Positions 1-51,552 of a DNA stretch of 64,000 nt are shown one piece after another. Within the stretch, counting starts at the first letter, position 1. Every line of letters starts with the position of its first letter. The translations under genes were made by a program, and so were the position numbers. This DNA comes from Squalus acanthias. Lineage: Eukaryota. The notes below the pieces were generated by a model. The model did no database searches, was not told the DNA's origin, and saw nothing but the letters and a program-made list of their open reading frames with translations. The stretch spans positions 310,001 to 374,000 of the forward strand of contig JASTWF010000048.1 in the NCBI GenBank assembly GCA_030390025.1, in the 5' to 3' direction.

Positions 1-105
1 GGGGAATATCAGTCACGGAACAGCTAATCATTAAACAGGTTAATGTGTCTTATTTCTGGGGAAATAACTGTCTCTCTTTGCTGTTCTTTCACGTTTTGAT
101 TCGAG

Positions 106-405
106 GTGTTGGCGGATCTCAGAAGATAGTGCAGTCCCGGGAGTATGTGTCGGTGAGAGAGGGCGAGACTGTGACTATCCCGTGTACCCAACGCGGGACT
201 GATTCTAACATGTACTGGTACCGTCAGCTGCCGGGCCAGGGTCTCCAGAACCTTCTGCAAGCGGTGTATGAAGATGATCCGAGCAGGTCGGACGGGATCA
301 CGGAGCGATTTTGGGCCAAAAAAACTGCAGATAACTCCTTCGATCTGAAGATCTCGATGGTGCGGCCGAACGACACGGCGCGGTATTTCTGCGCCTGCAG
401 TGATG
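106..405 (+). CDS. TRBV: TCR V segment V1, family A; V exon intact, leader upstream of window
   Basis: Ig V-set: IPC..MYWYRQLPG..FDLKIS..DTARYFCACSD; phase-1 acceptor TTCGAG|G at 105/106; followed directly by 23-RSS. Confidence 0.85.
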
Positions 406-444
406 CACAGAGATACACTCAGACTGAACCGTGCTACAAAAACC
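406..444 (+). other. 23-RSS of V1
   Basis: CACAGAG + 23 nt + ACAAAAACC. Confidence 0.95.
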
Positions 445-494
445 CGCCCGTCTCAGACACTACCGCCTTACCAGTTCTAATGATAGATAGACCG

Positions 495-765
495 GGATAG
501 AGTGAAGAAGAGGGATAGAGAGAGGGTGAGAGGGAGAGAGAAGGAGACGGAGAGAGAGAGAGGGAGGACGAGAGGGTATGAGACGGAACAGAGACAGAGA
601 GATAGGGAGAGAGGGAGCGCGAAGGCAACAGCGAGGCAGGTTTAGAGAGTGACAGGGAAAGAGAGAGATTGAGAGATAGAGAAGACAGAGGGAGAGACGG
701 AGAACGAGCTGTCCAACGATTTATGCATGTATTTATCTATCTATCTATCTATCTATTGATCTCTG
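495..765. repeat. GA-rich low-complexity tract plus short (TATC)n
   Basis: Direct inspection; paralog at about 45275-45560. Confidence 0.85.
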
Positions 766-1384
766 TATCTTTGGATGATTATAATTTGTTATTAATTAAT
801 TGTAAAATGTTATATCAATGCATTCAATGTCCTTTTTAAACAAATTAACTACATTTTAATCAACAGATTTTGCGGTGGGTAAATGGGTTAACGTCAGTGG
901 TGAAAGAGTGGTGAGTGGAGTATGTGGAGGAGATACCCATACCTGCCGATGCGCCAGTGAATTATTCCTGTTATTTCCCCTATTGCAATAGCGACTTGAG
1001 ACGCGCTCCTTGTCACAGCATCATGGAATGATACTTCACGGAAGGAGGCCATTCGACCCATCGCACCTGTGCCGGCTCTGTGAAAAAGCTATTATATTAG
1101 TCCCATTCCCCTGCCCTATCCCCTATAGACCTGCAACGTTTCCTCCACGAAATATGTATCCAATTTCCTTTTGAATGTTAGTATTGAATCTGTTTCCACC
1201 ACCCTTTCAGGATGAGCGTTTGAGATCATAACAAAGCGCTGTGAAAAAAAAAATCTCCGCCTGTCGCCTCTGGATCTTGTACCATTTACATTATATCCGT
1301 GTGCTCTGGTTATCGATCCTCCTGCCAGTGGAAACAATTTCTCATTATTTACTCGATCAAAACCCTTTATTATCTTTAACAAGG

Positions 1385-1690
1385 GGTACGGTAGCATAGG
1401 CGTTATGCTGCTGAACCAGTAATCCAGAGTTCGGGAAAAATGATCCAGAGACATGAGTTCAAATTCTACCACGACCACGAATTTAAATTTAGTTAATTGA
1501 CTAAATCTCGAATTGAAAAGCAAGTATCAGTAATAATGACCATGAAACTACAGGAGTGTCGTAAAAACCCAGTTGGTTCACTTAACTGCTCTCTTGTGGT
1601 TCAAGAACGCTTTCTCACCACCACCTTTCCCAAGGGCAATTAGGGATTGACAATAAATGCCAGCGACGCCCACATCCTATGAATAAAAAA
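1385..1690 (+). mobile_element. Internally deleted tRNA-derived shark SINE, within decayed CR1-type 3' fragments
   Basis: Shares GTATCAGTAAT..GACCATGAAACTAC..GTCGTAAAAACCCA..GGTTCAC and CACCACCACCTT..AATTAGGGAT with the fuller copy at 9668-10060; paralog about 46180-46490. Confidence 0.55.
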
Positions 1691-2664
1691 AATCTCCATT
1701 ACATCTCACATTAACATTCTCTGCTTTAATTAGAACAATCCCAGCTTCCCTATCTCTCATACCTGACGTCCCTCATCCCTGGTACCATTCGGGTAAATCT
1801 CCTCTTAACCTTCACTAAGGCGAACAGCCCCATACACATAGGATATAGTTCATCTTAGAACCCTTAAACGTGTCACGAATGTTTCACACTGTGCAAAGGC
1901 CAGATGACTCCTCAGATATGTTTGTCACTGAGACACCTGCGTCCTGACGGCGGGTGCAAACTCTGTTGAAAACCGTTTACCCACTTCTCATCAGACACTA
2001 GGCGCCTTTTGAAGTGTTTTTTCAAATAAACTAGAAGTTCAGCCCGGGGAAGAATTCGCGTTTAGCACATGGGAACTGAAAGCTGCACTGCCTGAAACAA
2101 GAGAGAACTTTGACCCAACAATGATCCGTGTTTTATAGAACCATAGAATCCTACAGCACAGAGAGAGGTCACTCGATCAGTCCAGTCCGTGCCGGCTCTT
2201 TGAAAGAGCGATTCAATTAGTTCCAACATGAGACTCCTCCCTCCCAGCTTCCTCTCACCCCGTCAACATATCCTTCTATTCCTTTCTCCCTCATGTGTTT
2301 ATCTCGCTTCCCCTTAAATGCATTTGTGTTATTTCCCTCAACTACGCCTTGTTGTAGCGAGTTCCACATTCTCACCACTCTCTGCGTAAAGAGGTTTCTC
2401 CTGAATTCCCTATTGGATTTATTAATGTCTTTCTGATACTTATGGCCCCTAGTTTTGGCCTCTCCTATCCAATTATTCCCACAACCCTGCTCATTCCCCG
2501 CAGACCTGTTTTTTCCCTCTTCAAGTTGATGTCCAATTCCCTTGTCAAAGTTACCAGTGAATCTGTCCCCAGCACACTTTCAGTAAGTGCATTCCCGATC
2601 ATAACATCTTGCGGCATAAAAAATCTGTCTCCTCATCTACCAGTTGGATTTGGAAGCAGAGAAA

Positions 2665-3510
2665 CATAGAAAAATAGGAGCAAGGGTCGGCCATTCGGCC
2701 CTTCGAGCCTGCTCCGCCATTCAATATGATCATGGCTGATCCTCTATCTCAATACCATATTCCCGCTCTCTCCCCACACCCCTTACTGCCTTTTGTGTCT
2801 AGAAATCTATCTATCTCCTTATTAAATATACACAGCGAATTGGCCTCCACAGACTTCTGTGAGAGAGAATTCCACAGTTTCACCATCCTCTGAGTGAAGA
2901 AATTTCTCCTCATCTCAGTCCTAAATATCCTAGCCCGTATCCTGAGACTGTGACCCCTCGTTCTAGAACCCCACCCCCCCACCCGCCACCAGCCAGGGGA
3001 AACATACTCCCTGCATCCAGTCTGTCTAGCCCTGTCAGAATTGTATATGTTTCAATGAGATCCCCTCTCCTTCATCTAAACTCCAGTGACTACAGGCCTA
3101 GGCCCTCCTCATACGACAGACCAGCCATTCCAGGAATCAGTCTGGTGAACCTTCGCTGCACTCCCTCTATGGCAAGTATATCCTTTCTTAGGTAAGGAGA
3201 CCAAAACTGCACACGATACTCCAGGTGTGGTCTCACCAAGGCCCTGTCTAACTGTAGGAAGACATCCTTGCTCCTGTACTCAAATCCTCATTTTTAAACA
3301 CGATTTGACTTTCATAAATCCATGTTGACTTTGTCTAATCCCGTTGATATTTTCTAAGTGTCCTGTTATCACATCCTTTATAATAGACTCTAGCATTTTC
3401 CCTACTACTGATGTTAGGTTAACCGGTCTGTAGTTCCCTGTTTTCTCTCTCCCTCCTTTTTTAAATAGTGGGGTTACATTTGCCAACCTCCAATCTGCAG
3501 GAACTGTTCC
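2665..3510 (-). mobile_element. CR1-type LINE fragments (RT region and 3' end, internally deleted)
   Basis: Minus-strand peptides WRLANVTPLFKKGGREKTGNYRPV..QHGF and RTRGHSLRI..RRNFFTQR; paralog about 49595-50420. Confidence 0.85.
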
Positions 3511-3789
3511 ATAATTTATCCTTGTCTGCTCTGTCAAAACCCCTCTGATATTTGAACACCTCTATTAACTCTCACCTTATCGTCTGCGTTTTATTATTAT
3601 ATGAAATTGAAAAACTTGCTCCGTTTCAAGCTTCTCACCGTATAGAAATACTCTCATATATTATTCTTAGGTCCCAAGTTGATGACGTCACACTTGCCCC
3701 AATGAATCCAACTGTCACTGTTTTTCTCACTCATTTAATCTCTCTCTGTGCACTTTGAAACTGACTGTTCCCGCCTGCTCTGCTCACTG

Positions 3790-4460
3790 CCAAGCAGAGA
3801 GAGATGGGTGGGACTGTCAACCAAGGAGAGAGAGTCAGGGCTGCGAATCAGAGAGCGCGTTGCAGGGCTGTCAATCAGAGACGGGAGCGGCGGAGCTTTC
3901 AATCAGAGAGGGCGTGGCAGAGTTGTCAATCATAGAGGGGAGCGGCGGAGATTTCAATCAGAGGGGGAAGGGGGGAGCTGTCAATCAGAGAGGGCGCGAC
4001 AGGGTTATCAATCAGAGAGTGAGTGATGGAGCTGTCAATCAGAGGGGGTGACGAGTTTTCAGAGAGGGGATGGGTGGTGATGTCAATCAGAGACGGACGG
4101 GCGGTGCTGTCAATCAGAGAGGGGAGTGGTGGAGCTGTGAATGATTACATAGGATTACATAGGATATCTGGCACAGAAACAAGCCATTCGGCCCAACCAA
4201 TCCATGTCGGCGTTTTTGCTCCACACGAGCCTCTTCCTGTCTTTCCTCATCTAAATATATCGGCATAACATTCTATTTCCTTGGCTCTCATATGCTTGTC
4301 TTTCCTCCCCTTAAATGCATCCATGCGATTCGCTTCAACCACTCCCTGTGGAATCAGAGAGGATAGGGGCGATGCTGTCACTCGGAGAGGGCGGGGCAGG
4401 TGTGTCAATCAGGGAGGGCGCGGCAGGCCTGTCAATCAGAGAGTGAGGGGCGGGGCATTG
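3790..4460 (+). repeat. ~27-bp minisatellite GCTGTCAATCAGAGAGGG.. upstream of a family-A leader
   Basis: Exact CTGTCAATCA at about 3869, 3978, 4032, 4107 and 4429 plus variants; interrupted by a LINE-end fragment at about 4145-4350. Confidence 0.85.
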
Positions 4461-4604
4461 TATATCCAGTGTTTTTTTATGAATGGTGGAGATCGTGCGT
4501 TTTCCACGCGCCAGTCTGGCCTTGCAAACAACAGGCTCATAGGTTCTGTCGCTGGGCAGCTTATTGGCCGCGGGTTCCCGCTCTCAGACCTTCTCTCCCA
4601 GAAC

Positions 4605-5963
4605 ATGCAGATTTTCTTCCTGTCCTGCACGTTGCCGCTGTTCCTATTAGCGGGTAATTAAAGCGAGAGACCGGTGTCCTATAGGAGGTCTTTGAGTCTG
4701 GTGCGGGAATGTATTAAAATCCTACAAAACAATTGTTCTATAATTAGAGAAAGAAAGAAAGAAGGCAAAGGAGAAAGAAAGAAGGAAAGAAAAAAGAAAG
4801 AAATGAGAGAGAAAGTAAGAAAGAAAGATAGAAAGAAAGAAAGGTAATGATAGAACAGCGTTGAGAAATAAATAGACTGTATCAGTTAAGTGACAAATAA
4901 AGAAGACACATTGTGCTAAATACAGTCGGGTTGGACATATAGAGAACAGGGTTATTCCTGTATTGTTTAAATCAGTGAGGGATTTTTCCACGCCAATCCA
5001 TGAGAATTGCCCCTTTTACAAAGAGAGCTCCGCTAAAAAAACGGGCTCCCAAATAACTACAAGCGCCTGGGGGTTTAGAATATAATTCTGGTTTTACCAA
5101 ATCGACTAAAAGCAGGATGTCCCGCGATAGAGCAGATCGAATGTTTATGTTAAGGAACATAGGAACAGGAGGAGGCCATTCAGGCCCTCGAGCCACTCAA
5201 TTAGATCACGGCTGATCTGTATCTTAGCTCCATCTCCCCTCCCTGATCGCGTCACATTTCATACCATCACCTAAAAAAATCTTTCATTCTCAGTTTTGAA
5301 ATTTTCAATTGACCCCCAGCATCAACAGCTTTCTCCTGGAGAGAGTTCCAGATTTCCACTACCCATTTTGTGAAGAATTGCTTCATGACATCACCACTGA
5401 AAGGCTTCGCTCCATTTATAAGATAGTGCTCCCCTTGTCCTGGACCCTCCGCTAGCGAAGGAAATAGTTTCTCTCTATCCGCATTATCCACTCCTTTAAA
5501 CGGTTCAATAAGATTTCAGTGAAAAATACAGGAAATATATCGATTTAAATCAAAGGTAAGCGAGGGAGGGTCATTGGAATAGTAGTCACGGAACAGCTAA
5601 TAATTAAACAGGTCAGTGTGTCTTATTTGTTGGGAAATAACTGTCTCTCTTTGCTATTCATTCCTGTTTTGCTTCGAGGTGTTGGCGAGTCTCAGAAGAT
5701 GGTGCCGTCCCGACGTTTGTGTCGGTGAGAGAGGGCGAGTCTGTGACTATCCCGTGCACCCAGCGCGGGACTGATCCTTACATGTACTGGTACCGTCAGC
5801 CCCCGGGCCTGGGACTCCAGCACATCCTGCAGGCGGAGCATGAAGCTGACCCGAGCAGGTCGGACGGGATTACGGAGCGATTTTGGGCCACGAAAACTGC
5901 AGATAACTCCTTCGATCCGAAGATATCGATGGTGCGGCCGTTATTTCTGCGCCTGCAGTGATG
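4605..5963 (+). pseudogene. TRBV: TCR V pseudogene V2, family A
   Basis: Leader 4605-4653 MQIFFLSCTLPLFLLA+G|GTAATT; V exon 5679-5963 with FR1 frameshift and FR3 deletion; defective RSS CTCAGAG-23-ACAAATACC at 5964-6002. Confidence 0.9.
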
Positions 5964-6479
5964 CTCAGAGACACACTCAGACTGAACCGTGCGACAAATA
6001 CCCGCCCGTCTCTGACACCAACCCCCAACTTGTTCTAATAATATATAGATAGATAGAATGATAGAGTAACTAAACAGCGATTGTTCACACTTTGTTTCAC
6101 AAAAGATACCTTCATGGAGAGATTTTTACAATCATGTAGCTTATTGGGAGTCCAGAATCGGCTCATTGGAAATCCAGATGTGGTTATTTGGGAATGTACA
6201 GCTGTTTAAAACGCTGAAGGGTTTACACAGACTACATAAAGGTGAACTGTTTCCAATGGCTGTAGGGCCGATAAACAGAGGGCACAGTTGTATAGTGATT
6301 TGCAAAAGAACCAGAGGCGACTTGATCCAAAAACCATTATACGCAGAGGGTGGTTAGCATTTGGAATGCACTGCATGATAGGGAGCTGGATACAGATACA
6401 ATAGTAGCCTTCAACAGGGAATTAGATACATACTTGAAGGAGGAAAAACTGCAGTGATATGGGAAAAGAGCAGGGGAGT

Positions 6480-6683
6480 GGATTCTGATTGGTTCGCTCG
6501 AGGAATGGACGTATCCAACCCTGCATCACTTCCTTACGCTCTTCCTTTTCCACTCAATCGTTTGAGAAGTGCGGGAAGGCTCCTCACGAGACACAACTCT
6601 CTTGTTCTCGCTCCATTCAGTTATTTAGAGAAAAGCTTCAAGTAAAATATGTCTGTTACTGGGTCTGATTATCTTGTTTCACC
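6480..6683 (+). pseudogene. Orphan family-B promoter and frameshifted leader (6649-6683); V exon absent
   Basis: Matches 53430-53635; leader is 35 nt versus 37 nt in intact copies; intron is cut at about 6765 by the GPCR block. Confidence 0.85.
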
Positions 6684-7278
6684 GTAAGGGACTTTTTGAA
6701 ACATTAATTTTTGCTAATAACCGATATTTACGTTATTCTTTTTTTCTTCCTTTCGTTCTTTGCTACCGTACTCTTCAAATATATCGCTGTTCCAGTGCCA
6801 ACTTTTGCGGTGTAAAAAAGTAAAAAAAAATAATTTCCACTGATTTATCATTTAAAAATACTTTTAAGAAAGGTAAGTTTATTTTTAGCCCCGTTAAAAA
6901 CTTTAATTACTTAAAAAAAATGTTTTTAAAATACTTAATTTATTGTAATTTAAAGTCATTTTAAAAATGTGATGTTTTTTTGTAAATTTATTTCATGTTT
7001 TACTATGTTTTTGGGGTGATCTCCATTCATATTATTGACAGGTCTTCCTGTCAAATGCAGGAAGGGAGATTCCCTTCTCGGATTGGCTCCCCATGGCCCA
7101 CGTGATCCCAGGAACGCTGCGAACCGCCAGTGCTGCTGGGATATGTGGGCCCTGCGCCAGTTTGGAGAGGCCCAGCAGCGGAACTCTGCGCCTCCCGGGA
7201 GCCCTCCGGTCTTGGCGCAGATTTTTCCAGATCGCAGCCATCCGCCCGCAGAAGGCCTGCGATCGGAATTTCTGGGCC

Positions 7279-7572
7279 ATTTAGTTTTCCGCTTCTGGCA
7301 ACAAATGGCCACAAATCGATCATAGTTGAAAGTGACGTTGAACCAGACAGAACAGTCTGTGGCTGCATAAAGCAGGATGGCGTGGATATTACACACGTGG
7401 ATGGACCGCACGATATAAAACTGTCTCCAATAAACAATCGGAATCTGCCTCAATATCAGGTCGAGGATAACGAAAAGTAGATCCGACGCTGCCATGGCCA
7501 CCTGGTAGCGAGTGGCACAATTTGAGAGACCGCACTTTCCCTGAGACAGGATCACAATCATCACTAAGTTTA
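7279..7572 (-). pseudogene. Truncated GPR139/142-like GPCR exon 2 (TM1-TM3 only)
   Basis: NLVMIVILSQGKCGLSNCATRYQVAMAASDLL..YDRFVAICCQKRKTK, paralogous to 11500-11790; acceptor mutated (CACAT); cut at about 7279 by unrelated sequence. Confidence 0.88.
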
Positions 7573-7636
7573 TGTGAGGAAGGGAGTAAACAGGGAAAAT
7601 TTCCATCTGGCTGGGAGCAAAAACAGCAGTTTGATG

Positions 7637-9609
7637 GAATTTGTGTTGTATTCGGCAACTGATTAGCGACATTCAATGATATAATCAAATAATATATTCG
7701 TGGAGCTGATTACAGGGCTTATTGAAAGAATAATCGATAATACATTGTGGAATCAATAAATGAAATGGAAATAAACACAACGTGAAAGTAACAGATGTTT
7801 GATCAAAGATAAACTAAATGATAGATCTACCTTTAGCCCAGCAGACAAAAGCACCGCCCGAGGTACCAGGTACACAAAGGGCCAGAACCTCTCAGGAAGC
7901 CTTCGTTTCACGGGATCAGTCAGCATTTGGAGCGGTGCAATTCGCTTCTGTGCCCCTGTGTGAGGGAGGGGAAAATCCCGCTTGGATTTCTGCTCCTGGT
8001 TATAGTATCTGTTATATTTATACCTGAAAATGAATGCAACAGCAAAATACAGAAACTGCAACCGTGTCATGCAATAATTACAGGCAATTGTATTTAACAT
8101 ATACGGAGTTAATATGGAAATGGTAAGATAATAATTACAAGTGCACTACAGTTATAAAGATAACTAGGTAGTAAGGAGTGTTTTGAAGGTTTGAGTGTTC
8201 TGCATTTTTGTTGAAATACAAAAAATGTAGCTTATTGAAAGGAAGATTTTGCAAATAACATTGCAAAGAATGGACTCTGAATTAAACTAGTTATCATTGA
8301 CCATCTCATGTCCCACTAAATGCATTTATTAGCATTGAATTCAGATGACTTATCCAACAGGCAAATTCCCGCCGGATACTTCTGTAAAGTATGCTTGGAA
8401 TGGTTACTTAAACAGAGTCACAGGAACACATCCTGTCAGATCACACACACATCTTGAAATGTCTGAAATATCCGCTAATCATTCAGTTCCAGTCAGTGTC
8501 TCCTTTACCGCCATCTCCAGTTCCGCATTCGTGGCGCTGCTTCTGATGGTTAGAAAAGGATTACAAGGATAATTTACAGTCTCACAAAATGTTCATTCAG
8601 TCAGATTTCAATACTTTCCAATCTTTGTTTTGAATTTACAATTGTATCCCATGCCCGTCTGTCACAGTTCAGTGGATCTCTGTGAGACGCAGAGTGATTC
8701 TCCATTGCCTCCTGCTGTGCTCCAGGATACACAAGTACTGAAGTACTGAGGATTAGCAAATCATTTGATAATTTTTTTTTAATATTCTCTGCACACGTTG
8801 GAAAACAACTGGTGAAAAAGCAGAAGGATAAATCTCTTCCATTCGTGTTCAAATACGTTACAAAAGTATCCGGCGGGAATTTGCCTGTTGGATAAGTCAT
8901 CTGAATTCAATGCTAATAAATGCATTTAGTGGGACATGAGATGGTCAATGATAACTAGCTTAATTCAGTTTCCATTCTTTACAATGTTATTTGGAAAATC
9001 TTCCTTTCAATAAGCTTCAGTTTTTGTATTTCAACAAAAATGCATAACACTCAAATTTTGAAAACACTCCTTACTACCCAATTATCATTATAACTGCAGT
9101 GCACTTGTATTTATTATCTTACTATTTCCATATTACCTCCGTCTATGTTAAATGAAATTTCCTGCAACTATTGCATGACGCGGTTTTAGTTTATCTATTT
9201 TGCTGTTGCATTCATTTTCAGGTCTAAATATAACAGATACTCTAACCAGGAGCAGGAATCCAAGCGGGATTTCCCCCTCCCTCACACAGGGGCACAGAAG
9301 CGAATTGCACCGCTCCAAATGCTGACTGATCCCGGGACACGAAGGCTTCCTGAAAGGTTCTGGTCCTTTGTGTCCCTGGTACCTCGGGCGGTGCTTTTGT
9401 CTGCTGGGCTAAAGGTAGATCTGTCATTTAGTCTATCTTTGATCAAACATCTGTTACTTTCAGGTTGTGTTTATTTCCATTTTATTTATTGATTCCTCAA
9501 TGTATTATCGATTATTCTTTCAATAAGCCCTGTTATCTACTCCACGACTAATATTATTTGATTATGTCATTGAAGGTCGCTAATCAGTTGCCGAATACAA
9601 CACAAATTC
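7637..9609. repeat. Long inverted repeat: arms about 7637-8386 and 8858-9609
   Basis: For example GACTTATCCAACAGGCAAATTCCCGCCGGATAC (about 8347) versus GTATCCGGCGGGAATTTGCCTGTTGGATAAGTC (about 8866); the ORF track shows mirrored peptides on opposite strands. Confidence 0.9.
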
Positions 9610-9667
9610 AAGGTGCTCTCGGAATACTGTTACGGGAGGAATTTCAGGCTTTGACCCATTGACGATG

Positions 9668-10060
9668 AGGTAACATAGTGGTTATGTTGCTGGACTATTA
9701 AACCAAATGCCTGGATCAACTGATCCGGTAATTCAAATCCCAGCAGCTGGGGAATTTAAATTCAATTAATTAAACAAATTTGGAATAAAAAGCTAGTATC
9801 AGGAATGGTGACCATGAAAGTACCGGATTGTCGTAAAAACCCATCTGGTTCACTAATGTCCTTTGGGGAAGGATATCTGCTGTCCTTACCCATTCTGGCT
9901 GAAATGTGACTCCAGACCCGCAGCAATGTGGTTGACTCTTAACTGCCCTCTGAAATAGCCTAGCAATCCACTCAGTTTTCTCAGGCGACTCACCACCACC
10001 TTCTCAAGGTCAATTAGGGATGGACAATAACTGCTGGCCTTTCCAGCGACGTTCACATAC
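9668..10060 (+). mobile_element. tRNA-derived shark SINE
   Basis: A-box-like TAGTGGTTA, B-box-like ATTCAAATCCC, body shared with the 1385-1690 copy, A-rich tail. Confidence 0.6.
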
Positions 10061-10219
10061 AAAAAATTAATTATAAAATGATTTATTAATGGTCATAATA
10101 ATTTTAAAAGCGTCATCCTGTTTTATAAATGGTCATAATGATTTCTAAAGGGTTATAAAGATCTGTAAAGTGTTGTAATGATTTTAAAGCATTATAAAGG
10201 GTTATAATGATTCATAAAG

Positions 10220-10860
10220 TCCTGCTGCCGGGCCTCCTTCTCCCCGGGCTCGGTCTGCTGCGGGCCGGGCCGGGATTCTCCCCCCTCGCTGCCCGCTCTC
10301 ACGGTAACCGGGCTTCTCGCTGCTGCTTCCGTCTGAACGCTCGACTCCCGCCGCCAGGGAATTTCCCAAGTCACAGCCGCCATCTTTGTGACGTACGCCA
10401 GAGCCGCCATCTTTGAGCGGGGCGCCAGAGCCGCCATCTTTGAGCGGGGCGCCAGAGCCCCCATCTTTGAGCGGGGCGCCAGAGCCACCATCTTTGAGCG
10501 GGGCGCCGTCGCCACCAACTTTGTGCGGGGCCGCAGAGCCGCCATCTTTCTGCTGTGCGCGGTCGCGTCCCGCTACTTTGCTCAATGAGCGGGTGCCGCC
10601 ATCTTTGTCTCGGGCACAGCGGCCGCCATCTTACTGCGGGGAGGAGTTGCGCTGCTTCAGGCGGCGCGCTTGGAGCGACCATCTTTGTCTGGGGCACTGG
10701 TGCCTTTCCAGAGGGGCCTGAGAGATGGCCGCCATCCTCACAGGGAGCTCAGTGTGGAGAGTGCGTCAGGGAACGTGTTAATATTCACCCCGATCACCGG
10801 CCCCGCGGGCGGCCCAGCCCGGGGCAGAGCGGCTCAACACAATATCAGGACCAGGAAGCT
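10220..10860. promoter_or_regulatory. CpG island with a 27-bp tandem repeat of YY1 consensus sites
   Basis: GCCGCCATCTT at 10376, 10403, 10430, 10538, 10595 and 10622, variants at 10457, 10484 and 10511; GGGAATTTCC at 10357. Confidence 0.65.
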
Positions 10861-10887
10861 CAGAGGCAGCAAATTCTCCGCTTCTTC

Positions 10888-13800
10888 TCAGCTTTTAATG
10901 AGTTTCACAATTAGAGCAAAGGGATATTTCCCCACATTCTTCAACTGCTCTCTGAACTTAGTCTGGGTCACGGCATAAATCCCAGTGTTTGTGCAGCAAC
11001 TCAGCAGCTGCAACATCAATCCTATTTCTATTACATAATAAGGTAGATATACAGACTGATACCCCAACCAACACATCCGCAAATATATATAATACACCAT
11101 AAACACTGCCCATAACAGGATGAAATTGCCCGAGATAACAAGCAGTAAAATCATGGATTTCCTGCGGCTCTCCATCTCTGTGTCTCTGGGACTCTCCTCA
11201 CTCCTGGGACCCCGGAGTCTCCTGCGGGCTCTGCTGGACACTAAAATGTGTCTGACGTTAAAAGCATTGAGCAGCAAAATCACGACAAATGGGACCCCAG
11301 GGGTGAGAATATAATGAAGGAGCTCAATTGCTCCCCAGACCGGTGAATACAGAACATCGCGTGTTACATCACAAAACAGAGCTGCTTTGTCAATTGTATA
11401 CCAACCTGTGAACATAAAATACCAGGTGATATCCTTTAAACAGCTCAGCACAGTCACTGTTCCTAGAACCACAGCCGCTGTTTTCTCGGTGCAATATTTA
11501 GTTTTCAGCTTCTGGCAGCAAATGGCCACAAATCGATCAAAGGTGAAAGTGACGGTGAACCAGACAGAACAGTCTGTGGCTGCATAAAGCAGGACGGCGT
11601 GGATATTACACACGCGGATGGAATGAACAAAATAAAGCTGTCTCCAATAAACAAACAGTATCTGCCTGAAAATCAGGTCGAGGATAACGACCAGTAGATC
11701 CGCCACTGCCATGGCCACCAGGTAACGAGTGCCACAATTGGAGAGACCGCACTTTCCCCGAGACAGGATCACAATCGTCACTAAGTTCACTGTGAGGAAG
11801 GGAAATTAACAGGGAAATTATACATCAGGCCGGGAGCAAGAGCAACAGTTTGATGGAATTCGGGGTGAAATCTGAAACTCATGAGCGACATTCAATGATA
11901 TAATCAAATTCTATTACCTGTGGAGCTGAATACAGGGTTCTTGTAAGAATAATTGGGAATACATTGTGGAATTAATCAATGAAATGCGGTTAAATACAAC
12001 AGCAAATTAAGAGATGTTTGATCAATGAGAGATTAAAAGAGAAATCTACCATTAGCCCAGCAGACAAATACAACGCCCGAGGTAACAGGGACACAAAGGA
12101 CCAGAACCCCTCAGGAAGCCTTCGTGTCCCGGGATCAGTCAGCATTTGGAGCGGTGAAATTCGCTTTTGTGCCCCTGTGTTAGGAAGGGGGTAATCCCGC
12201 TTGGATTCCTCCTCCTGGTTAGAATATCCATTATATTTAGAACTGAAAATGAATGCAACAGCAAAATACAGAAACTGCATCCTTGGCGTGCAACAATTAC
12301 AGGCAATAGCATTTAAAATTTTCGGATGTAATATAGAAATGTTAAGATAATAAATACAATTGCACTGCAGTTATAAAAATAACTGGGCTGTAAGACGTGT
12401 TTTGAATATTGAGTTGTATGCATTTTTGTTGGAATGGATGAATTCTAGATCATTGAAAGGAAGATTTTCCAAAATAACATTGCAAAGAATGTATTCTGAA
12501 TTAAAATAAATAGTTATCATAAGCCAGGTAACGTCTCACTAAATGCATTTATCTGCATCGAAATCAGACGACTTATCCCACAGGCAAAGAGCCGACGGAT
12601 GCTTTTGTACAACATCTGAACAGAAATGGAGGAGCGGTATCCTTGTACTTTTTCACCTGTTGGTTTCCAACTTGTGCAGAGAGTATTAGATGGGAAAATA
12701 TCAAAGGATTTTCTTATCCTCAGTACTTCAGTTACAATCAGCTGGGATTGTTTATCCTGAAGTACAGCAGGAGGCAATAGAGAATCACTCTGGGTCTCAC
12801 TGAGAGATCCACTGAACTGTGACAGACAGGCATGGGATCCAAATGTAAATTCAAAACAAAGATGAATGAGTATATTGTGAGAATAAAAAGTATCCTTAAA
12901 ATCCTATTCCAACCATCAGAAGCAGCGCCACTAATGTGGAACTGGAGATGGTGGGAAAGGAGACACTGACTGGAACTGAATGATTAGCGGATATTTCAGA
13001 CATTTATAGATGTGTGTGTGATCTGCCAGGATTTGTTCCTGTGACTCTGTGCAAGTAACCATACCGAGCATTAGGTGAAAACGTATGCAAAGAACTGCGG
13101 CTGCTGGAAATCTGAAATAAAAACAGAAAATATTGCAAATACTCAGCAGGTCAGGCAGCATCTCTGGAGAGAGTAACAGATGTAACGTTTCAGGTTGATG
13201 AAATTTCGCCATTGGGTGAAAAGTCTCCTAAACAAAGAGAACATTCTTCTGATCTGTTACAAATGTTCTTTGGAGATAGCCGACCGAAATTCGTTCAATA
13301 AAGAGACTCGTACAATATCTTTGCCTGAGTTGATTATAGAACATGAATCTGGGTAACACCGTATCACCTTCAGAATCAATTGCTGACAGCAGTGCGGATG
13401 GGAAGTAGTCTAACAAGAAGAGAAATACAGTTAAGCATTATTCACAGAATTAATAGCTGGAACAAAGACTTACCAGGGACACCAACAGCAGAGAGGGGCG
13501 TGGAGAGGAGCAGGAATAAATGACCAGAGCAGTAATACAGTGAAACATGACTTACAGAATCAATAACTGAATACAAAGTCTTACCAGGAACACCAACATC
13601 AGCGAGGTGTGGGGGGAGTAAATGACAAGAACAGCAAAAGTGATACATGATTTATAAAATTAATAGTTGGATACAGAGACTTACCATGAACACCAACAGC
13701 AGCGAGGATGTGCCAGTCTTGTTAAACAAAAACCCATGCATTAACAAAGATGCAACCACTTGAAACACAGAATACCATTAATAACTGAGTATCCCACGGT

Positions 13801-13979
13801 AAATAGCAAGAATAATATTACAGTGTAACATGTTTTATAGAATTAGTAACTGGACATAGATACTTACTGGGAACACCAACAGCAGCGAGGAGGGGATAGT
13901 AAATCTTTTTAATATCTTTACATATGCTTTCTATCTTCCACTCAGAAAGCCGACCTTTAATACCGATGCTTGAACTCAT
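10888..13979 (-). CDS. Class A orphan GPCR, GPR139/GPR142-like; two exons (13979-13868, 11789-10888), 337 aa
   Basis: Exon 1 MSSSIGIKGR..IYYPLLAAVGVP+A|GTAAGT joins phase-1 acceptor TTCCTCACAG|TG to give ..VGVPMNLVTIVIL..; TM2 AVADL, TM3 FTFDRFVAIC, TM7 NTGIY, helix 8 TKFREQL; no stops. Confidence 0.85.
13088..13205. mobile_element. Short elasmobranch interspersed repeat fragment in the GPCR intron
   Basis: GCTGGAAATCTGAAATAAAAACAGAAAA..ACTCAGCAGGTCAGGCAGCATC, recalled as a common shark repeat; class uncertain. Confidence 0.5.
13440..13900 (-). repeat. Tandem reiteration of the GPCR exon-1 3' end plus splice donor
   Basis: Plus-strand CTTAC[C/T]..ACACCAACA at about 13469, 13580, 13680 and 13863. 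Confidence 0.8.
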
Positions 13980-14054
13980 GCCTTCCCTTCTGTGAGTGAC
14001 TGATGGTATTTGTGCTGGAGGCAACGCGCTGACTGTGTGAGGTGACACAGTGAA

Positions 14055-14100
14055 GGGAGCTCCTTATTTAGAGCAGAGAGAAATTCCCGAGTGACATCAT
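14055..14100 (-). promoter_or_regulatory. Putative GPCR promoter: TATA-like, NF-kB-like and CRE/Vbeta-decamer motifs
   Basis: Minus-strand TAAATAA (about 14064-14070) and GGGAATTTCT (14079-14088); AGTGACATCA at 14090-14099; 85-120 nt upstream of the ATG. Confidence 0.4.
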
Positions 14101-14379
14101 TAGGCCTCTCTGTAACTGGCATTAATTACAGTCATTGAACAAACAGACTTATGGAACCATTATCACCACAACACCTTATGCAACACAATCCAGCTCACAT
14201 TATTGTAAACAGTTGAAAATTCAAAGTGAGCAAATGCACAATATTTCACCCACCCGTAAAATACCAAGGATAGAACAAAGAGAACGGAGTTTCTCTTCCT
14301 GTATTAAACTCAAACTGAGAACAAAAGACGAGAAAGTGACCGAACGGGTTAGAATAAAAGTGAAAGATTAGATATAGAG

Positions 14380-44069: not shown

Positions 44070-45186
44070 ATGCGGACTTGCCTCCTGTCCTGTCCGTTGC
44101 TGCTGTTCCTATTGGCGGGTAAGTAGAGCGAGAGCTCGGTGTCACATAGAGGGCTTTAGCTTTTGGAGTAGGAATGTATTAAAGAGCCTACAAAACAAGT
44201 TTTCATCAAAAAGAGAAAGAAAGAAAGAACGAGATGAAAAGAAAGATAGAAAGAAAGAAAGATAGAACGATGGAAAGATGGAAAGGAAGAGAGAAAGAAA
44301 GAAGAAAGACAGAAAGAAAAAAACTGAAAGAAAGAAAGAGGAAAGGAAGAGAACAAGGTTTTTGGAGCAAGTAGACAATATCTGTTTAGTGACACATAAA
44401 GGAGATAAATTGTGTTAAATAAGGCGGGATGGACATTTAGTTAACTGGGTTAGTTCTATAATAGTTGAACCAGTGAGTGACATTTCCACGCCAATCCAGC
44501 TTACAAGAGAGCTCCACTAAACCTACTGGCTCCTGTCTAACTACAAGTGCCTGCCGGTTTAGAATATTAATCTTGTTTTGCCAACTCGACTAAACCAGAA
44601 TGTCGCGCGGTAGAGACGGTAGACTGTTCTTTTAAGGAGCAGAGGAGCAGGGGGGTGATAGGGTAGATAGAGGAAATAATTTCTCCCTATCTAGCCTATC
44701 CAATCCTTTGATCACTATTAGATTTCAGTGAAAATACAGAAAATACATCGATTGAAATGAAAAGTAAGAGTGTGAGAGAAAGGGGAATATCAGTCAAAGA
44801 ACAGCTAATCATTAAACAGGTTAATGTGTCTTATTTCTGGGGAAATAACTGTCTCTCTTTGCTGTTCTTTCCCGTTTTGATTCGAGGTGTTGGCGGATCT
44901 CAGAAGATAGTGCAGTCCCGGGAGTATGTGTCGGTGAGAGAGGGCGAGTCTGTGACTATCCCGTGTACCCAACGCGGGACTGATTCTAATATGTACTGGT
45001 ACCGTCAGCTGCCGGGCCAGGGTCTCCAGAACCTTCTGCAAGCGGTGTATGAAGATGATCCGAGCAGGTCGGACGGGATCACGGAGCGATTTTGGGCCAA
45101 AAAAACTGCAGATAACTCCTTCGATCTGAAGATCTCGATGGTGCGGCCGAACGACACGGCGCGGTATTTCTGCGCCTGCAGTGATG
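44070..45186 (+). CDS. TRBV: TCR V segment V12, family A; open frame, near-identical to V1
   Basis: Leader 44070-44118 MRTCLLSCPLLLFLLA+G|GTAAGT; V exon 44887-45186; GAG-type acceptor. Confidence 0.87.
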
Positions 45187-45225
45187 CACAGAGATACACT
45201 CAGACTGAACCGTGCTACAAAAACC
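45187..45225 (+). other. 23-RSS of V12
   Basis: CACAGAG + 23 nt + ACAAAAACC. Confidence 0.95.
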
Positions 45226-45515
45226 CGCCCGTCTCAGACACTACCGCCTAACCAGTTCTATTGATAGATAGACCGGGATAGAGTGAAGAAGAGGGATAGA
45301 GAGAGGGTGAGAGGGAGAGAGAAGGAGACGGAGAGAGAGAGAGAGGGAGGGCGAGAGGGTGTGAGACGGAACAGAGACAGAGAGATAGGGAGAGTGGGAG
45401 CGCGAAGGCAACAGCGAGGCAGGTTTAGAGAGTGACAGGGAAAGAGAGACATTGAGAGATAGAGAAGACAGAGGGAGAGACGGAGAGCGAGCTGTCCAAA
45501 GATTTATGCATGTAT

Positions 45516-45547
<32 letters not shown>

Positions 45548-47075
45548 TGATCTCTCTATCTTTGGATGATTATAATTTGTTATTAAATAATTGTAAAATG
45601 TTATATCAATGCATTCAATGTCCTTTTTAAACAAATTAAGTACATTTTAATCAACAGATTTTGCGGTGGGTAAATGGGTTAACGTCAGTGGTGAAAGAGT
45701 GGTTACTGGAGTATGTGGAGGAGATACCCATACCTGCCGATGCGCCAGTGAATTATTCCTGTTATTTCCCCTATTGCAATAGCGACTTGAGACGCGCTCC
45801 TTGTCACAGCATCATGGAATGATACTTCACGGAAGGAGGCCATTCGACCCATCGCACCTGTGCCGGCTCTGTGAAAAAGCTATTATATTAGTCCCATTCC
45901 CCTGCCCTATCCCCTATAGACCTGCAACGTTTCCTCCAGGAAATATGTATCCAATTTCCTTTTGAATGTTAGTATTGAATCTGTTTCCACCACCCTTTCA
46001 GGATGAGCGTTTGAGATCATAACAAAGCGCTGTGAAAAAAAAAATTCTCCGCCTGTCGCCTCTGGATCTTGTACCATTTACCTTATATCCGTGTGCTCTG
46101 GTTATCGATCCTCCTGCCAGTGGAAACAATTTATCATTATTTACTCGATCAAAACCCTTTATTATCTTTAACAAGGGATACGGTAGCATAGGCGTTATGC
46201 TGCTGAACCAGTAATCCAGAGTTCGGGAAAAATGATCCAGAGACATGAGTTCAAATTCTACCACGACAGCTGGGGAATTTAAATTCAGTTAATTGACTAA
46301 ATCTCGAATTGAAAAGCTAGTATCAGTAATAATGACGATGAAACTACAGGAGTGTCGTAAAAACCCAGTTGGTTCACTTAACTGCTCTCTTGTGATTCAA
46401 GAAAGCTTTCTCACCACCACCTTTCCCAAGGACAATTAGGGATTGACAATAAATGCCAGCGACGCCCACATCCTATGAATAAAAAAAATCTCCATTACAT
46501 CTCACATTAACATTCTCTGCTTTAATTAGAACAATCCCAGCTTCCCTATCTCTCATACCTGACGTCCCTCATCCCTGGTACCATTCTGGTAAATCTCCTC
46601 TTAACCTTCACTAAGGCGAACAGCCCCATACACATAGGATATAGTTCATCTTAGAACCCTTAAACGTGTCACGAATGTTTCACACTGTGCAAAGGCCAGA
46701 TGACTCCTCAGATATGTTTGTCACTGAGACACCTGCGTCCTGACGGCGGGTGCAAACTCTGTTGAAAACCGTTTACCCACTTCTCATCAGACACTAGGCG
46801 CCTTTTGAAGTGTTTTTTCAAATAAACTAGAAGTTCAGAACAGGGAAGAATTTAACCCTTTAATTCGCGTTTAGCACATGGGAACTGAAAGCTGCACTGC
46901 CTGAAACAAGAGAGAACTTTGGCCCAAAAATGATCCGTGTTTTATAGAACCATACAATCCTATAGCACAGAGAGAGGTCACTCGATCAGTCCAGTCCGTG
47001 CCGGCTCTTTGAAAGAGCGATTCAATTAGTTCCAACATGAGACTCCTCCCTCCCAGCTTCCTCTCACCCCGTCAA

Positions 47076-49201
47076 AACATAGAAACATAGAAACATAGAA
47101 AATAGGTACAGGAGTAGACCATTCGGTCCTTCGAGCCTGCACCGCCATTCAATGCGTTCATGGCTGAACATGCTACCTCAGTACCCCATTCCTGCTTTCT
47201 CGCCATACCCCTTGATCCCCTTAGTTGTGAGTGTTATATCTAACTCCCTTTTGAATATATTTAGCGAACTGGCCTCAACAACCTTCTGTGGAAGAGAATT
47301 CCATAGATTCACCACTCTCTGGGTGAAGAAGTTCCTCCTCAGCTCAGTCCTAAATGGCTTCCCCTTAATCCTTAGACTGTGACCCCTGGTTCTAGTTTTC
47401 CCTACCATTGGGAACATTCTGCCCGCATCTAATTTGTCTAAACCAGTCAGGATTTTAAATGTCTCTATAAGATCCCCCCTCATTCTTCTGAACTCCAGAG
47501 GATACAAGTTCAGTTGACCCAATCTTTCTTGATATGTCAGTCCGGCCATCCCAGGAATCAATCTAGTGAACCTTCGCTGCACTCCCTCAATAGTAAGAAT
47601 GTCCTTCCTTAAGTTAGGAGACCAAAACTGCGCACAATACTCCAGGTGTGGCCTCACCAAGGCCCTGTACAACTGCAGCATCACCTCCCTACTCCTGTAC
47701 TCAAATCCCCTTGCTATGAAGGCCATCATTCCGTTTGCTTTCTTGACTGCCTGCTGCACTTGCATTCCCACCTTCAGTGACTGATGTACCATGACGCCCA
47801 GGTCTCGTTGCACGTCCCCTTTCCCTAATCTGCCACCATTCAGGTAATAGTCCGCCTCTCTATTTTTACCACCAAAGTGGATAACCTCACATTTATCCAC
47901 ATTGTACTTCATCTGCCATACATTTGCCCATTCACCCAACCTGTCCAAGTCACTCTGTAGCCTCCTAGCATCCTCCTCATTGTTCACACTGCCTCCCAAT
48001 TTAGTGTCATCCGCAAATTTGGAGATATTACATTTAATCCCTTCGTCCAAATCATTAATATATAATGTAAACAGCTGGGGTCCCAGCACCGAACCCTGCG
48101 GTACCCCGCTGGTCACTGCCTGCCATTCTGAAAAGTACCCATTTACTCCTACTCTTTGTTTCCTGTGTGCCAACCAGTTCTCAATCCACCTCAACACATT
48201 ACCCCCAATCCCATGTGCTTTAACTTTGCTCACCAATCTCTTGTGTGGGACCTTTTCGAAGGCCTTCTGAAAGTCCAAATACACCACATCTACTGGTTCC
48301 CCCCTGTCCACCCTATTGGAAACATCCTCAAAAAATTCCAGAAGATTTGTCAAGCATGATTTCCCTTTCACAAATCCATGCTGACTTGGACCTATCATGT
48401 CGCCACTTTCCAAATGGGCTGTTATGACATCTTTAATAATTGCTTCCATCATTTTACCCACGACCGATGTCAGGCTGACCGGTCTATAATTCCCTGCTTT
48501 CTCCCTCCCTCCTTTTTTAAAAAGAGGGGTTACATTGGCCACCCTCCACTCCATCGGAACTGATCCAGAGTCTAAGGAATGTTGGAAAATGATCGTCAAT
48601 GCATCCACTATTTCCAAGGCCACCTCCTTAAGTACTCTGGGATGCAGACCATCAGGCCCCGGGGATTTTTCAGCCTTCAGTCCCATCAATTTCCCCAATA
48701 CCTTTTCCCGACTAATAAGGATTTCCCTCAGCTCCTCCCTCTTACCAGATCCTCTGACCCCTTTTATTTCCGGCAGGTTGTGTGTGTCCTCCACAGTAAA
48801 CACCGAACCAAAGTACTTGTTCAATTGATCTGCCATTTCCTTGTTCCCCATTACGACTTCCCCTGTTTCCGACTGCAGGGGACCTACGTTTGTTTTTACT
48901 AACCTCTTTCTTTTTACATATTTATAGAAGCTTTTGCAGTCCATTTTTATGTTCTCTGCAAGCTTCCTTTCATATTTTATTTTCCCTGCCCTAATCAAAC
49001 CCTTCGTCCTCCTCTGCTGAGTTTTGAAGTTCTCCCAGTCCCCGGGTTTGCTGCTACTTCTGGCCAATTTGTATGCAACTTCTTTGGTTTTAATACTATC
49101 CCTGATTTCCCTTGTTAGCCATGGTTGAGCCACCTTCCCTTTTTTATTTTTATGCCAGACCGGGATGTACAATTGTTGTAGTTCATCCATGCGATCTCTA
49201 A
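47076..49201 (-). mobile_element. Young 5'-truncated CR1 (HER1-like) LINE insertion
   Basis: 3' tail (TTTCTATG)n at about 47076-47100; absent from the paralogous site at about 2266; open ORF2 fragment. Confidence 0.95.
47178..49190 (-). CDS. CR1 ORF2 reverse transcriptase, partial (no endonuclease domain), 670 aa open
   Basis: KSPGPDG, NYRPVSLTS, QHGF, YLDFQKAF, GVPQGSVLGP and KFADD motifs. Confidence 0.9.
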   Translation of the reverse strand: MDELQQLYIPVWHKNKKGKVAQPWLTREIRDSIKTKEVAYKLARSSSKPGDWENFKTQQRRTKGLIRAGKIKYERKLAENIKMDCKSFYKYVKRKRLVKTNVGPLQSETGEVVMGNKEMADQLNKYFGSVFTVEDTHNLPEIKGVRGSGKREELREILISREKVLGKLMGLKAEKSPGPDGLHPRVLKEVALEIVDALTIIFQHSLDSGSVPMEWRVANVTPLFKKGGREKAGNYRPVSLTSVVGKMMEAIIKDVITAHLESGDMIGPSQHGFVKGKSCLTNLLEFFEDVSNRVDRGEPVDVVYLDFQKAFEKVPHKRLVSKVKAHGIGGNVLRWIENWLAHRKQRVGVNGYFSEWQAVTSGVPQGSVLGPQLFTLYINDLDEGIKCNISKFADDTKLGGSVNNEEDARRLQSDLDRLGEWANVWQMKYNVDKCEVIHFGGKNREADYYLNGGRLGKGDVQRDLGVMVHQSLKVGMQVQQAVKKANGMMAFIARGFEYRSREVMLQLYRALVRPHLEYCAQFWSPNLRKDILTIEGVQRRFTRLIPGMAGLTYQERLGQLNLYPLEFRRMRGDLIETFKILTGLDKLDAGRMFPMVGKTRTRGHSLRIKGKPFRTELRRNFFTQRVVNLWNSLPQKVVEASSLNIFKRELDITLTTKGIKGYGEKAGMGY

Positions 49202-50699
49202 ATATCCTTCTATTCCTTTCTCCCTCATGTGTTTATCTCGCTTCCCCTTAAATGCATTTGTGTTATTTCCCTCAACTACGCCTTGTGGTAGCGAGTTCCA
49301 CATTCTCACCACTCTCTGCGTAAAGAGGTTTCTCCTGAATTCCCTATTGGATTTATTAATGTCTTTCTGATACTTATGGCCCCTAGTTTTGGCCTCTCCT
49401 ATCCAATTATTCCCACACCCCTGCTCATTCCCCGCAGACCTGTTTTTTTCCTCTTAAAGTTGATGTCCAATTCCCTTGTCAAAGTTACCAGTGAATCTGT
49501 CCCCAGCACCCTTTTAGTAAGTGCATTCCCGATCATAACATCTTGCGGCATAAAAAATCTGTCTCCTCATCTACCAGTTGGATTTAGAAGTGGAGAAACA
49601 TAGAAAAATAGGAGCAAGGGTCGGCCATTCGGCCCTTCGAGCCTGCTCCGCCATTCAATATGATCATGGCTGATCCTCTATCTCAATACCATATTCCCGC
49701 TCTCTCCCCACACCCCTTACTGCCTTTTGTGTCTAGAAATCTATCTATCTCCTTATTAAATATACACAGCGAATTGGCCTCCACAGACTTCTGTGGGAGA
49801 GAATTCCACAGGTTCATCATCCTCTGAGTGAAGAAATTTCTCCTCATCTCAGTCCTAAATATCCTAGCCCGTATCCTGAGACTGTGACCCCTCGTTCTAG
49901 AACCCCACCCCCCCACCCGCCACCAGCCAGGGGAAACATACTCCCTGCATCCAGTCTGTCTAGCCCTGTCAGAATTGTATACGTTTCAATGAGATCCCCT
50001 CTCATTCATCTAAACTCTAGTGAATACAGTCCTAGTCTCTCCTCATATGATAGACCTGCCATCCCAGTAATCAGTTTGGTGAACCTTCGCTGCACTCCCT
50101 CTATGGCAAGTATATCCTTTCGTAGGTAAGGAGACCAAAACTGCACACGATACTCCAGGTGTGGTCTCACCAAGGCCCTGTCTAACTGTAGTCAAATCCT
50201 CTTGTCAAACACGATTTGCCTTTCATAAATCCATGTTGACTTTGTCTAATCCCGTTGATATTTTCCAAGTGTCCTGTTATCACATCCTTTATAATAGACT
50301 CTAGCATTTTCCCTACTACTGATGTTATGCTGACCGGTCTGTAGTTCCCTGTTTTCTCTCTCCCTCCTTTTGTACGTATTGGGGTTACATTTGCCACCCT
50401 CCAATCTGCAGGAACTGTTCCATAATTTCTCCTTGTCTACTCCATCAAAACCCCTCTGATATTTGAACACCTCTATTAACTCTCACCTTATCGTCTGCGT
50501 TGTATCATTCTATGAAATTGAAAAACTTCCTCAGTTTCAAGCTTCTCATCGTGTAGAAATACTCTGATATATCTTTCTTCGGTCCCAAGTGGATGACGTC
50601 ACACTTGCCCACAATGAATCCATCTGTCACTGTTTTGCTCACTCATTTAATCTCTCTCTGTCCCCTTTGAAACAGACTGTTCCGGTCTGCTCTGCTCAC

Positions 50700-51405: not shown

Positions 51406-51552
51406 TTGTATATCCAGTGTTTTCTGATGAATGACAGAGATCGTGCGTTTTCCACGTGCCAGTCTGGCCTTGCAAACAACAGCCTCATAGCTCCTGTCGC
51501 TGTGAAGCTTATTGGCCGTTGGTTCCCGCTCTCAGACCCTCTTTCCCGGATG

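What the first reader, a model, noticed from the sequence alone, without database searches (positions are those of the whole stretch)
6765..14340. Foreign ~7.6 kb GPCR cassette inserted into the TCR V array, replacing a V exon
Seen: 1-6760 is collinear with 44782-53695. Where the second copy continues into V14, the first breaks off in the family-B intron. TCR-type sequence resumes only at about 14343 with the post-RSS motif ACGGGTTAGAATAAAAGTGAAAGATTAG (compare 18279). Between lie an intact antisense two-exon GPR139/142-like gene, a truncated paralog and a third intron copy. There are no N gaps at the junctions. Established: non-TCR passengers occur in TCR loci (trypsinogens in mammalian TRB), and deletional V-to-DJ joining removes intervening DNA. 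Inference: if D-J-C lies downstream in the same orientation, using V1 or any upstream V would excise this GPCR, while using V4 onward would keep it. Receptor dosage would then be clonally tied to V choice in T cells.
Basis: partly seen in the sequence, partly recalled or inferred. Interest (0 to 1): 0.8.

Follow-up and report, generated by a model that had tools for sequence, protein, structure and literature searches.

The report
Orphan receptor gene inside shark TCR-beta
A piece of a very large shark receptor-gene family has landed among the T-cell receptor beta gene segments and has since been duplicated there; some T cells would cut it out when they rearrange the locus, but it is most likely a passenger, as trypsinogen and olfactory-receptor genes are in mammalian T-cell receptor loci.

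Summary
The insertion is real and the geometry holds. The window lies in a TCR-beta V array; D, J and C lie 640-690 kb downstream on the same strand, so upstream V use would delete the cassette. The cassette occurs twice, 187 kb apart and 98% alike, inside a 56-kb duplication. Its right junction appears in short-read contigs. It is a rearranged fragment of a chondrichthyan receptor family: 129 further matches at 80-86% in a capped list. The family is named 'GPR139' automatically but is only weakly like human GPR139. Gene A (337 aa) is intact in both copies, with modest signs of constraint (6 N, 7 S; P about 0.03). Corrections: probably two V exons were lost, the left end is half a transposon, and the third intron copy is a later inversion product. 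Dosage coupling is unsupported: no copy-specific RNA data were obtained, there are two copies, and an inverted second TRB locus would keep the cassette. Non-TCR genes, including GPCRs, inside TCR loci are known. The scan noted this family earlier on other DNA of this genome.

The parts
6649..6683 (+). Orphaned leader exon of the V14-type gene; its intron breaks off at the start of a (TTTC)n tract near 6760
   Evidence: 2 nt shorter than the V4 leader; collinearity with empty paralogs
6765..6810 (.). About 46 bp of filler at the left junction
   Evidence: A 36-mer from it matches 2 places in the genome at up to 2 mismatches, both cassette copies
6811..7278 (.). About 470 bp of a 560-760 bp non-autonomous DNA transposon (imperfect TIRs starting GG, flanked mostly by AWT); its intact end abuts gene B exon 2
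   Evidence: 4648 candidates, 38 other copies scored at 89-91%; ends of 8 copies; the PIF/Harbinger-like label is recalled
7279..8392 (-). Gene B remnant: first 100 codons of exon 2 and part of the intron; dead
   Evidence: 79% aa to A over 99 codons; nearest outside relatives 91% on C3432
8393..9609 (+). Inverted intron copy; mosaic of flipped B intron (to about 8955) and arm C (beyond)
   Evidence: Diagnostic sites: 19 of 22 B-type in 8477-8950, mostly C-type from 8959 on
10050..10887 (.). CpG-rich module 3' of gene A with 6 CCGCCATNTT motifs (YY1-type; consensus recalled); part of the donor gene unit
   Evidence: CpG o/e 0.87, GC 0.65; found 3' of donor genes
10888..11789 (-). Gene A exon 2 (301 codons incl. 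stop), class A GPCR
11790..13867 (-). Gene A intron, GT..AG, with tandem degenerate copies of the exon-1 3' end at 13413-13712
13868..13979 (-). Gene A exon 1 (ATG at 13979)
13980..14340 (-). Upstream region of gene A with TATA-like TAAATAA (14064-14070) and AGTGACATCA (14090-14099), both conserved in donors
   Evidence: 7 of 8 donor loci printed show both motifs; the eighth was not located by the string search
14340..14379 (+). Right junction and resumed TRB post-RSS sequence (V4/V15-type), 95 bp beyond the nonamer position

Best explanation
The cassette is a fragment of a large cartilaginous-fish GPCR gene cluster that sits in the TCR-beta V array in two 98%-identical copies, and it is likely a passenger that upstream V-to-DJ joining would delete without a programmed effect on T cells. 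Shown: donor-family origin, both junctions, the second copy, the intact ORF, and same-strand D-J-C. Inferred: it arrived once in the germline by break repair that copied in cluster DNA, with a fold-back inside the insert and loss of about two V exons either then or later. The 56-kb V-array duplication then copied it, and the window's copy later suffered an inversion plus a 1.9-kb deletion in the dead B/C part. Gene A probably still works from its own promoter as one more member of its family.
For: Donor homology stops sharply at 14340 while 8 of 8 donor loci aligned run on together. No TSD is definable, and there is no RSS at either junction: nonamer mismatches 5-8 at the 3 CAC sites. Unique filler at the left junction. 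B and C arms are 93.6% alike, more than either is to A (81-83%) or to the nearest donors (89-90%). Cassette and flanks diverge alike between the two copies (1-3.5%). Family size: 131 of 131 scored matches at 80% or more, out of 4681 candidates. Precedent: trypsinogens inside TRB and olfactory receptors interspersed with TRAV1 (PMC2275272, passages; PMC8945572, passages).
Against: Gene A has fewer amino-acid changes between the two copies than the local non-coding rate predicts (6 observed, 12.7 expected; P about 0.03), so it is not simply decaying. Family variation concentrates in the extracellular face (40 of 77 columns with 3 or more residues, against 8 of 222 elsewhere; regions drawn after seeing the alignment). 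A's nearest paralogs are only 85% identical, so this receptor may have its own ligand and family size may not buffer its loss. No exact donor was found (best 91-93%).
Confidence: 0.72

Rival explanations
1. Gene A has been co-opted by its position: it is expressed in developing T cells from the opened TRB chromatin, and V choice sets its dose (4 to 0 copies), giving clones a different receptor state.
For: Deletional geometry. Intact ORF in both copies with P about 0.03 for constraint. Own promoter retained, with an AGTGACATCA decamer that fits the mammalian V-beta promoter consensus (recalled). Distinct extracellular loops.
Against: The decamer is a family-wide feature, present in 7 donor loci, and is not seen at the V promoters of the first 860 kb of this array. 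Three of the four exon-2 amino-acid changes are derived in the window's copy at positions invariant in 13 paralogs, which hints at relaxation. 101 of 169 open-frame V segments delete neither copy. The inverted second locus offers non-deleting routes. The insertion is young: nearest donors have dS about 0.10.
Confidence: 0.08
2. The cassette matters as cis-acting DNA rather than as a receptor: its CpG island with clustered YY1-type motifs, or its antisense promoter, alters accessibility or use of neighbouring V segments.
For: 13 of the 17 CCGCCATNTT matches and 2 of the 4 CpG islands in 1.144 Mb of the contig lie in the two cassettes. A role of YY1 in antigen-receptor locus contraction is recalled, not checked.
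Against: The module is a standard part of the donor unit and diverges faster between the two copies (3.5%) than the flanks (about 2.1%). No functional data.
Confidence: 0.07
3. Gene A is a recent unexpressed copy that has stayed intact by chance.
For: P(no stop, no frameshift) since the duplication is about 0.27 under the local neutral rate. The insert stops about 170 bp short of a 51-bp array that lies beyond the breakpoint in 3 of 3 donor promoters of the 100-kb stretch examined, so upstream elements may be missing.
Against: Deficit of non-synonymous changes (P about 0.03), intact splice sites and promoter motifs in both copies.
Confidence: 0.12
4. The cassette is an assembly chimera.
For: No listed contig spans the whole stretch, and the left junction was not shown bridged. 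The run that bridges the right junction may come from the assembled sample.
Against: Two copies share both junctions yet differ by about 2% in cassette and flanks. A short-read contig of run X3 carries the upstream copy's two junction letters (14344 G, 14346 A) 31 letters from its end, at depth 21.8 of 35.8.
Confidence: 0.01

Closest known systems
Trypsinogen (PRSS/TRY) genes in mammalian and avian TRB
   Same: Non-TCR protein genes lying between TRBV and D-J-C, removed by deletional joining; copy-number variable in human (PMC2275272 and PMC8945572, passages).
   Different: Those are old and conserved across amniotes. This is a young GPCR insert in mid-array that destroyed V exons and was duplicated with the array.
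Olfactory receptor genes interspersed with TRAV1 at the 5' end of mammalian TRA/D
   Same: Class A GPCR genes of a huge family lying downstream of a V segment in a TCR locus (PMC2275272, passage).
   Different: There one or two V segments lie among ORs at the locus edge; here one receptor gene lies deep in a 240-segment V array of TRB.
Chondrichthyan 'probable G-protein coupled receptor 139' multigene family (database label)
   Same: 2475 database proteins at E <= 1e-10 among 3809 candidates; the 120 listed are all from sharks, the best at 71-78% identity. Same exon 2, promoter and 3' CpG module as copies on C3432.
   Different: This copy lies outside the clusters, inside TRB.
Human GPR139 (PDB 7vug, 9m42)
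   Same: Weak full-length similarity, E 1.2e-6, 31 bits.
   Different: No better than the match to an octopamine receptor (E 5e-7); orthology and ligand cannot be carried over.

Membership tests
TCR beta (TRB) locus | V segments with 23-bp-spacer RSS in one orientation | tested here: met
   240 V loci on the plus strand in 1-960 kb, none on the minus strand
TCR beta (TRB) locus | Single D with 5' 12-RSS and 3' 23-RSS and a GGGACAGGGG core, then J cluster with 12-RSS, then C | tested here: met
   D at C3311:960,540, 34 J-like motifs at 961-1,009 kb, C1 domain at 1,014,606; the D core as a TRB hallmark is recalled
Passenger gene inside a TCR locus (trypsinogen / OR type) | Intact non-TCR gene between V segments and D-J-C in deletional orientation | tested here: met
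Passenger gene inside a TCR locus (trypsinogen / OR type) | Expression independent of T-cell rearrangement | not testable with these tools
   Only contigs of runs guessed to be RNA were on offer
Class A (rhodopsin) GPCR | 7tm_1 domain over its length | tested here: met
   PF00001 71.5 bits over a 30.5 cut-off, residues 7-277
GPR139 orthologues | Clear best, high-scoring match to vertebrate GPR139 | tested here: not met
   E 1.2e-6 only, ranked below an octopamine receptor; no tree with true GPR139/142 was built
Transposon-carried cargo (Pack-TIR type) | Cargo between two element ends with a TSD | tested here: not met
   Only one element end is present and it faces the gene from outside; the right end is plain donor DNA
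RAG-mediated germline insertion | Junctions at RSS heptamer borders | tested here: not met
   Right break 95 bp beyond the nonamer, left break in an intron microsatellite, no RSS at either end

The most novel reading that the evidence does not exclude
The shark family is a diversified immune-cell receptor repertoire with hypervariable extracellular loops, and this TRB-resident member is transcribed in T cells, so V(D)J recombination itself sets how many copies of a non-antigen receptor each clone keeps. That would couple TCR V choice to a second signalling input.
Probability: 0.07. Interest if true: 0.78.

Novelty: new member of a known kind. Interest (0 to 1): 0.36.

Why it matters
As it stands, it is a well-resolved young example of how unrelated genes enter antigen-receptor loci, with empty paralogous sites and a donor family in the same genome. 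It also shows that this receptor family seeds copies outside its clusters. It gives a cheap test of whether a gene subject to somatic deletion by V(D)J joining is expressed in T cells, because the two TRB copies differ from all other family members found by about 9-10% of bases in exon 2. If expression followed V position it would be a new kind of clonal coupling. The family and the double TRB locus seen beside it may deserve more attention than the insertion.

Tried and rejected
No RNA holder on record was listed. Three runs guessed to be RNA gave only 36-88-base pieces among those listed, which paralogs could supply, and no 13868-11789 joint; this is not counted for or against expression. 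The left junction was not shown bridged in 4 DNA contig sets. One contig of run X6 crosses the window-specific joint at 8392 with 0 differences but only 25 letters on one side, below the tool's 31-letter rule, so it is not counted. RAG or RSS-mediated insertion and transposon cargo were rejected. A 12-spacer RSS-like site at 13443 has 4 mismatches, like sites at 299 and 5253, and is treated as background. The V-beta decamer idea was rejected as family-wide. No exact donor was found: the best B-type relatives (C3432:1,469k and 1,659k) lack the transposon at the exon-2 break; the 30-44 kb between them and A-type genes was not fetched. No further GPCR copy was seen in 1-1,144 kb of the contig (664-864 and 944-1,144 kb by tblastn; 864-944 kb only through the capped genome searches) or in 20 sampled 10-kb stretches of the remaining 1.13 Mb. 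A first PDB search at 1e-8 gave nothing. Literature searches for the family and for shark TRB organisation listed no paper whose title or abstract start describes either; the library lacks most subscription journals. No structure or complex was predicted, as neither would decide the question.

Full report
Setting. The window is G000:C3311:310,001-374,000 of a 3.7-Gb genome; the homologue names show it is a cartilaginous fish. I held 1-1,144 kb of the contig in full and 20 samples of 10 kb from the rest. The plus strand carries 240 V loci by tblastn, 169 with an open frame and an RSS. It then carries one D (GGGACAGGGGGG between a 12- and a 23-RSS) at 960.5 kb, 34 J-like motifs and a C domain at 1,014.6 kb. 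A second TRB locus faces it tail to tail: C at 1,073 kb, four J motifs, a D at 1,098.9 kb, and V segments on the minus strand in 19 of the 20 samples, out to 2.2 Mb.

The observation. The cassette recurs at 127.76-137.2 kb with the same two junctions, inside a duplicated block of about 56 kb at 95-98% identity. Cassette parts and flanks differ between the copies by 1.0-3.5%. Two diverged copies with shared junctions are not what a misassembly gives. A short-read contig of run X3 shows the upstream copy's two junction letters with 31 letters to its end, and further depth at that place carries the window's letters. That run may be the assembled sample, and the left junction was not shown bridged.

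Anatomy. From the left: an orphaned V leader, whose intron stops where empty paralogs begin a (TTTC)n tract; 46 bp of filler found only in the two cassettes; about 470 bp of a high-copy element with imperfect inverted ends, flanked by AAT or ATT on the left in 8 of 8 copies and on the right in 6 of 8 (the Harbinger-like label is recalled); the first third of exon 2 and the intron of a dead paralog B; an inverted intron copy; a CpG-rich module that follows donor genes too; gene A; and about 360 bp of upstream DNA. In the upstream copy, B runs on to a LINE-like fragment (CR1-like, recalled) that folds back on itself and then into arm C, which is 93.6% like B. In the window, diagnostic sites are B-type to 8950 and C-type from 8959, with a 2-base overlap at the 8392 joint, so the window's copy was inverted and shortened by about 1.9 kb after the duplication. 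On the right, donor homology stops at 14340 while the 8 donor loci aligned continue together. The resumed 36-mer is identical to that behind V4, 3 mismatches from V15-type and 8-9 from V14-type units. Against the two empty paralogs this means loss of the V14 exon and the whole next V, about 2.3-2.7 kb. Neither junction lies at an RSS.

The receptor. Gene A encodes 337 residues in both copies, with GT..AG splice sites. A genome search scored 131 of 4681 candidates; all 131 were full length at 80-100% identity, two of them the TRB copies. These are not copy numbers. The nearest relatives lie on contig C3432 (85-86% protein; 91-93% DNA in the promoter). Databases call the family 'probable GPR139', but the match to solved human GPR139 is E 1.2e-6, below that to an octopamine receptor. 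Among 14 sequences, columns with three or more residues number 40 of 77 in three extracellular-facing stretches and 8 of 222 elsewhere; I drew the stretches after seeing the alignment. Pairwise dN/dS of A against 13 paralogs is 0.48-0.86. Between the two TRB copies there are 6 non-synonymous and 7 synonymous changes, where the local non-coding rate predicts 12.7 and 4.5 (P about 0.03 by two tests). Against constraint: survival of both ORFs alone has probability about 0.27 under neutrality, and three of the four exon-2 replacements are derived in the window's copy at sites invariant in 13 paralogs.

How it most likely works. A germline break in the V array was repaired with cluster DNA, once; the fold-back, the filler and the loss of V exons may date from that event or later, which these data cannot order. 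Array duplication then copied the insert. In a T cell, joining a V upstream of a cassette to the plus-strand DJ would excise it (established V(D)J mechanism applied to the geometry shown). Of 169 open-frame V segments, 31 would remove both copies from that allele, 37 only the window's copy and 101 neither (the array may continue past the contig start). Use of the inverted locus would remove none, and a plus-arm V joining its DJ would invert rather than delete (inferred from orientation). Somatic loss is therefore expected in a minority of rearrangements. It has a consequence only if the gene is expressed in T cells and is not covered by paralogs; neither is shown. The promoter's AGTGACATCA fits the recalled V-beta decamer but is shared by 7 donor loci and is not seen at this array's V promoters.

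Comparison with what is known. Trypsinogen genes lie between TRBV and TRBC, and olfactory receptor genes are interspersed with TRAV1, in opossum, human and mouse (PMC2275272, passages seen); human trypsinogen-like genes inside TRB vary in copy number (PMC8945572, passages). So GPCR and enzyme passengers in TCR loci are a known kind. Inverted TRBV segments 3' of TRBC are described for amniotes (PMC11754216, passages); those passages do not describe a full second inverted locus in sharks. The whale-shark paper speaks of a relative paucity of GPCRs in cartilaginous fishes (PMC8455134, passages), which sits oddly with this family's size. Searches (family; shark TRB) listed nothing on point; I saw listings only, opened no supplements, and subscription journals are largely absent.

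Verdict. Real, well resolved, and most likely a passenger (0.72). Co-option with V-dependent dosage remains possible at 0.07-0.08 and is directly testable with thymus or single-cell RNA. Novelty: new member of a known kind. Interest 0.36.

Noticed in passing
G000:C3311:1-2,205,000: Nearly the whole contig is two tail-to-tail TRB loci, each with about 1 Mb of V segments, its own D, J cluster and a C domain; the two C domains are only 34% identical.
   Followed up: partly
G000, many contigs (C2671, C3432, C2450, C1087, C3707 and others): The 'GPR139-like' family gave 4681 first-look candidates, and its variation is concentrated in extracellular loops, as in chemosensory or immune receptor repertoires; I found no paper on it.
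   Followed up: partly
window 10200-10850: CpG island with six tandem CCGCCATNTT motifs; such a module follows donor genes, with 2-8 motifs in 5 loci checked.
   Followed up: partly
G000:C3432:947,771-948,016; 1,005,592-1,005,836; 1,016,234-1,016,478: A 51-bp tandem array lies about 170 bp beyond the insertion breakpoint in three donor promoters; 27-bp arrays lie farther off.
   Followed up: no
window 6811-7278 and thousands of other places: A 560-760 bp non-autonomous DNA transposon with GG-starting inverted ends and AWT flanks, about 90% alike among copies on all large contigs.
   Followed up: partly
window 13413-13712: Three degenerate tandem copies of the exon-1 3' end, each with a GTAAG donor, inside gene A's intron; possible alternative splice donors.
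   Followed up: no
window 5670-5990: The V just left of the cassette is a pseudogene with a frameshift and a deletion before the YFC motif.
   Followed up: no
G000:C3311:1,028,000-1,048,000: About 20 kb of CT-rich simple repeat lies between the two C genes.
   Followed up: no
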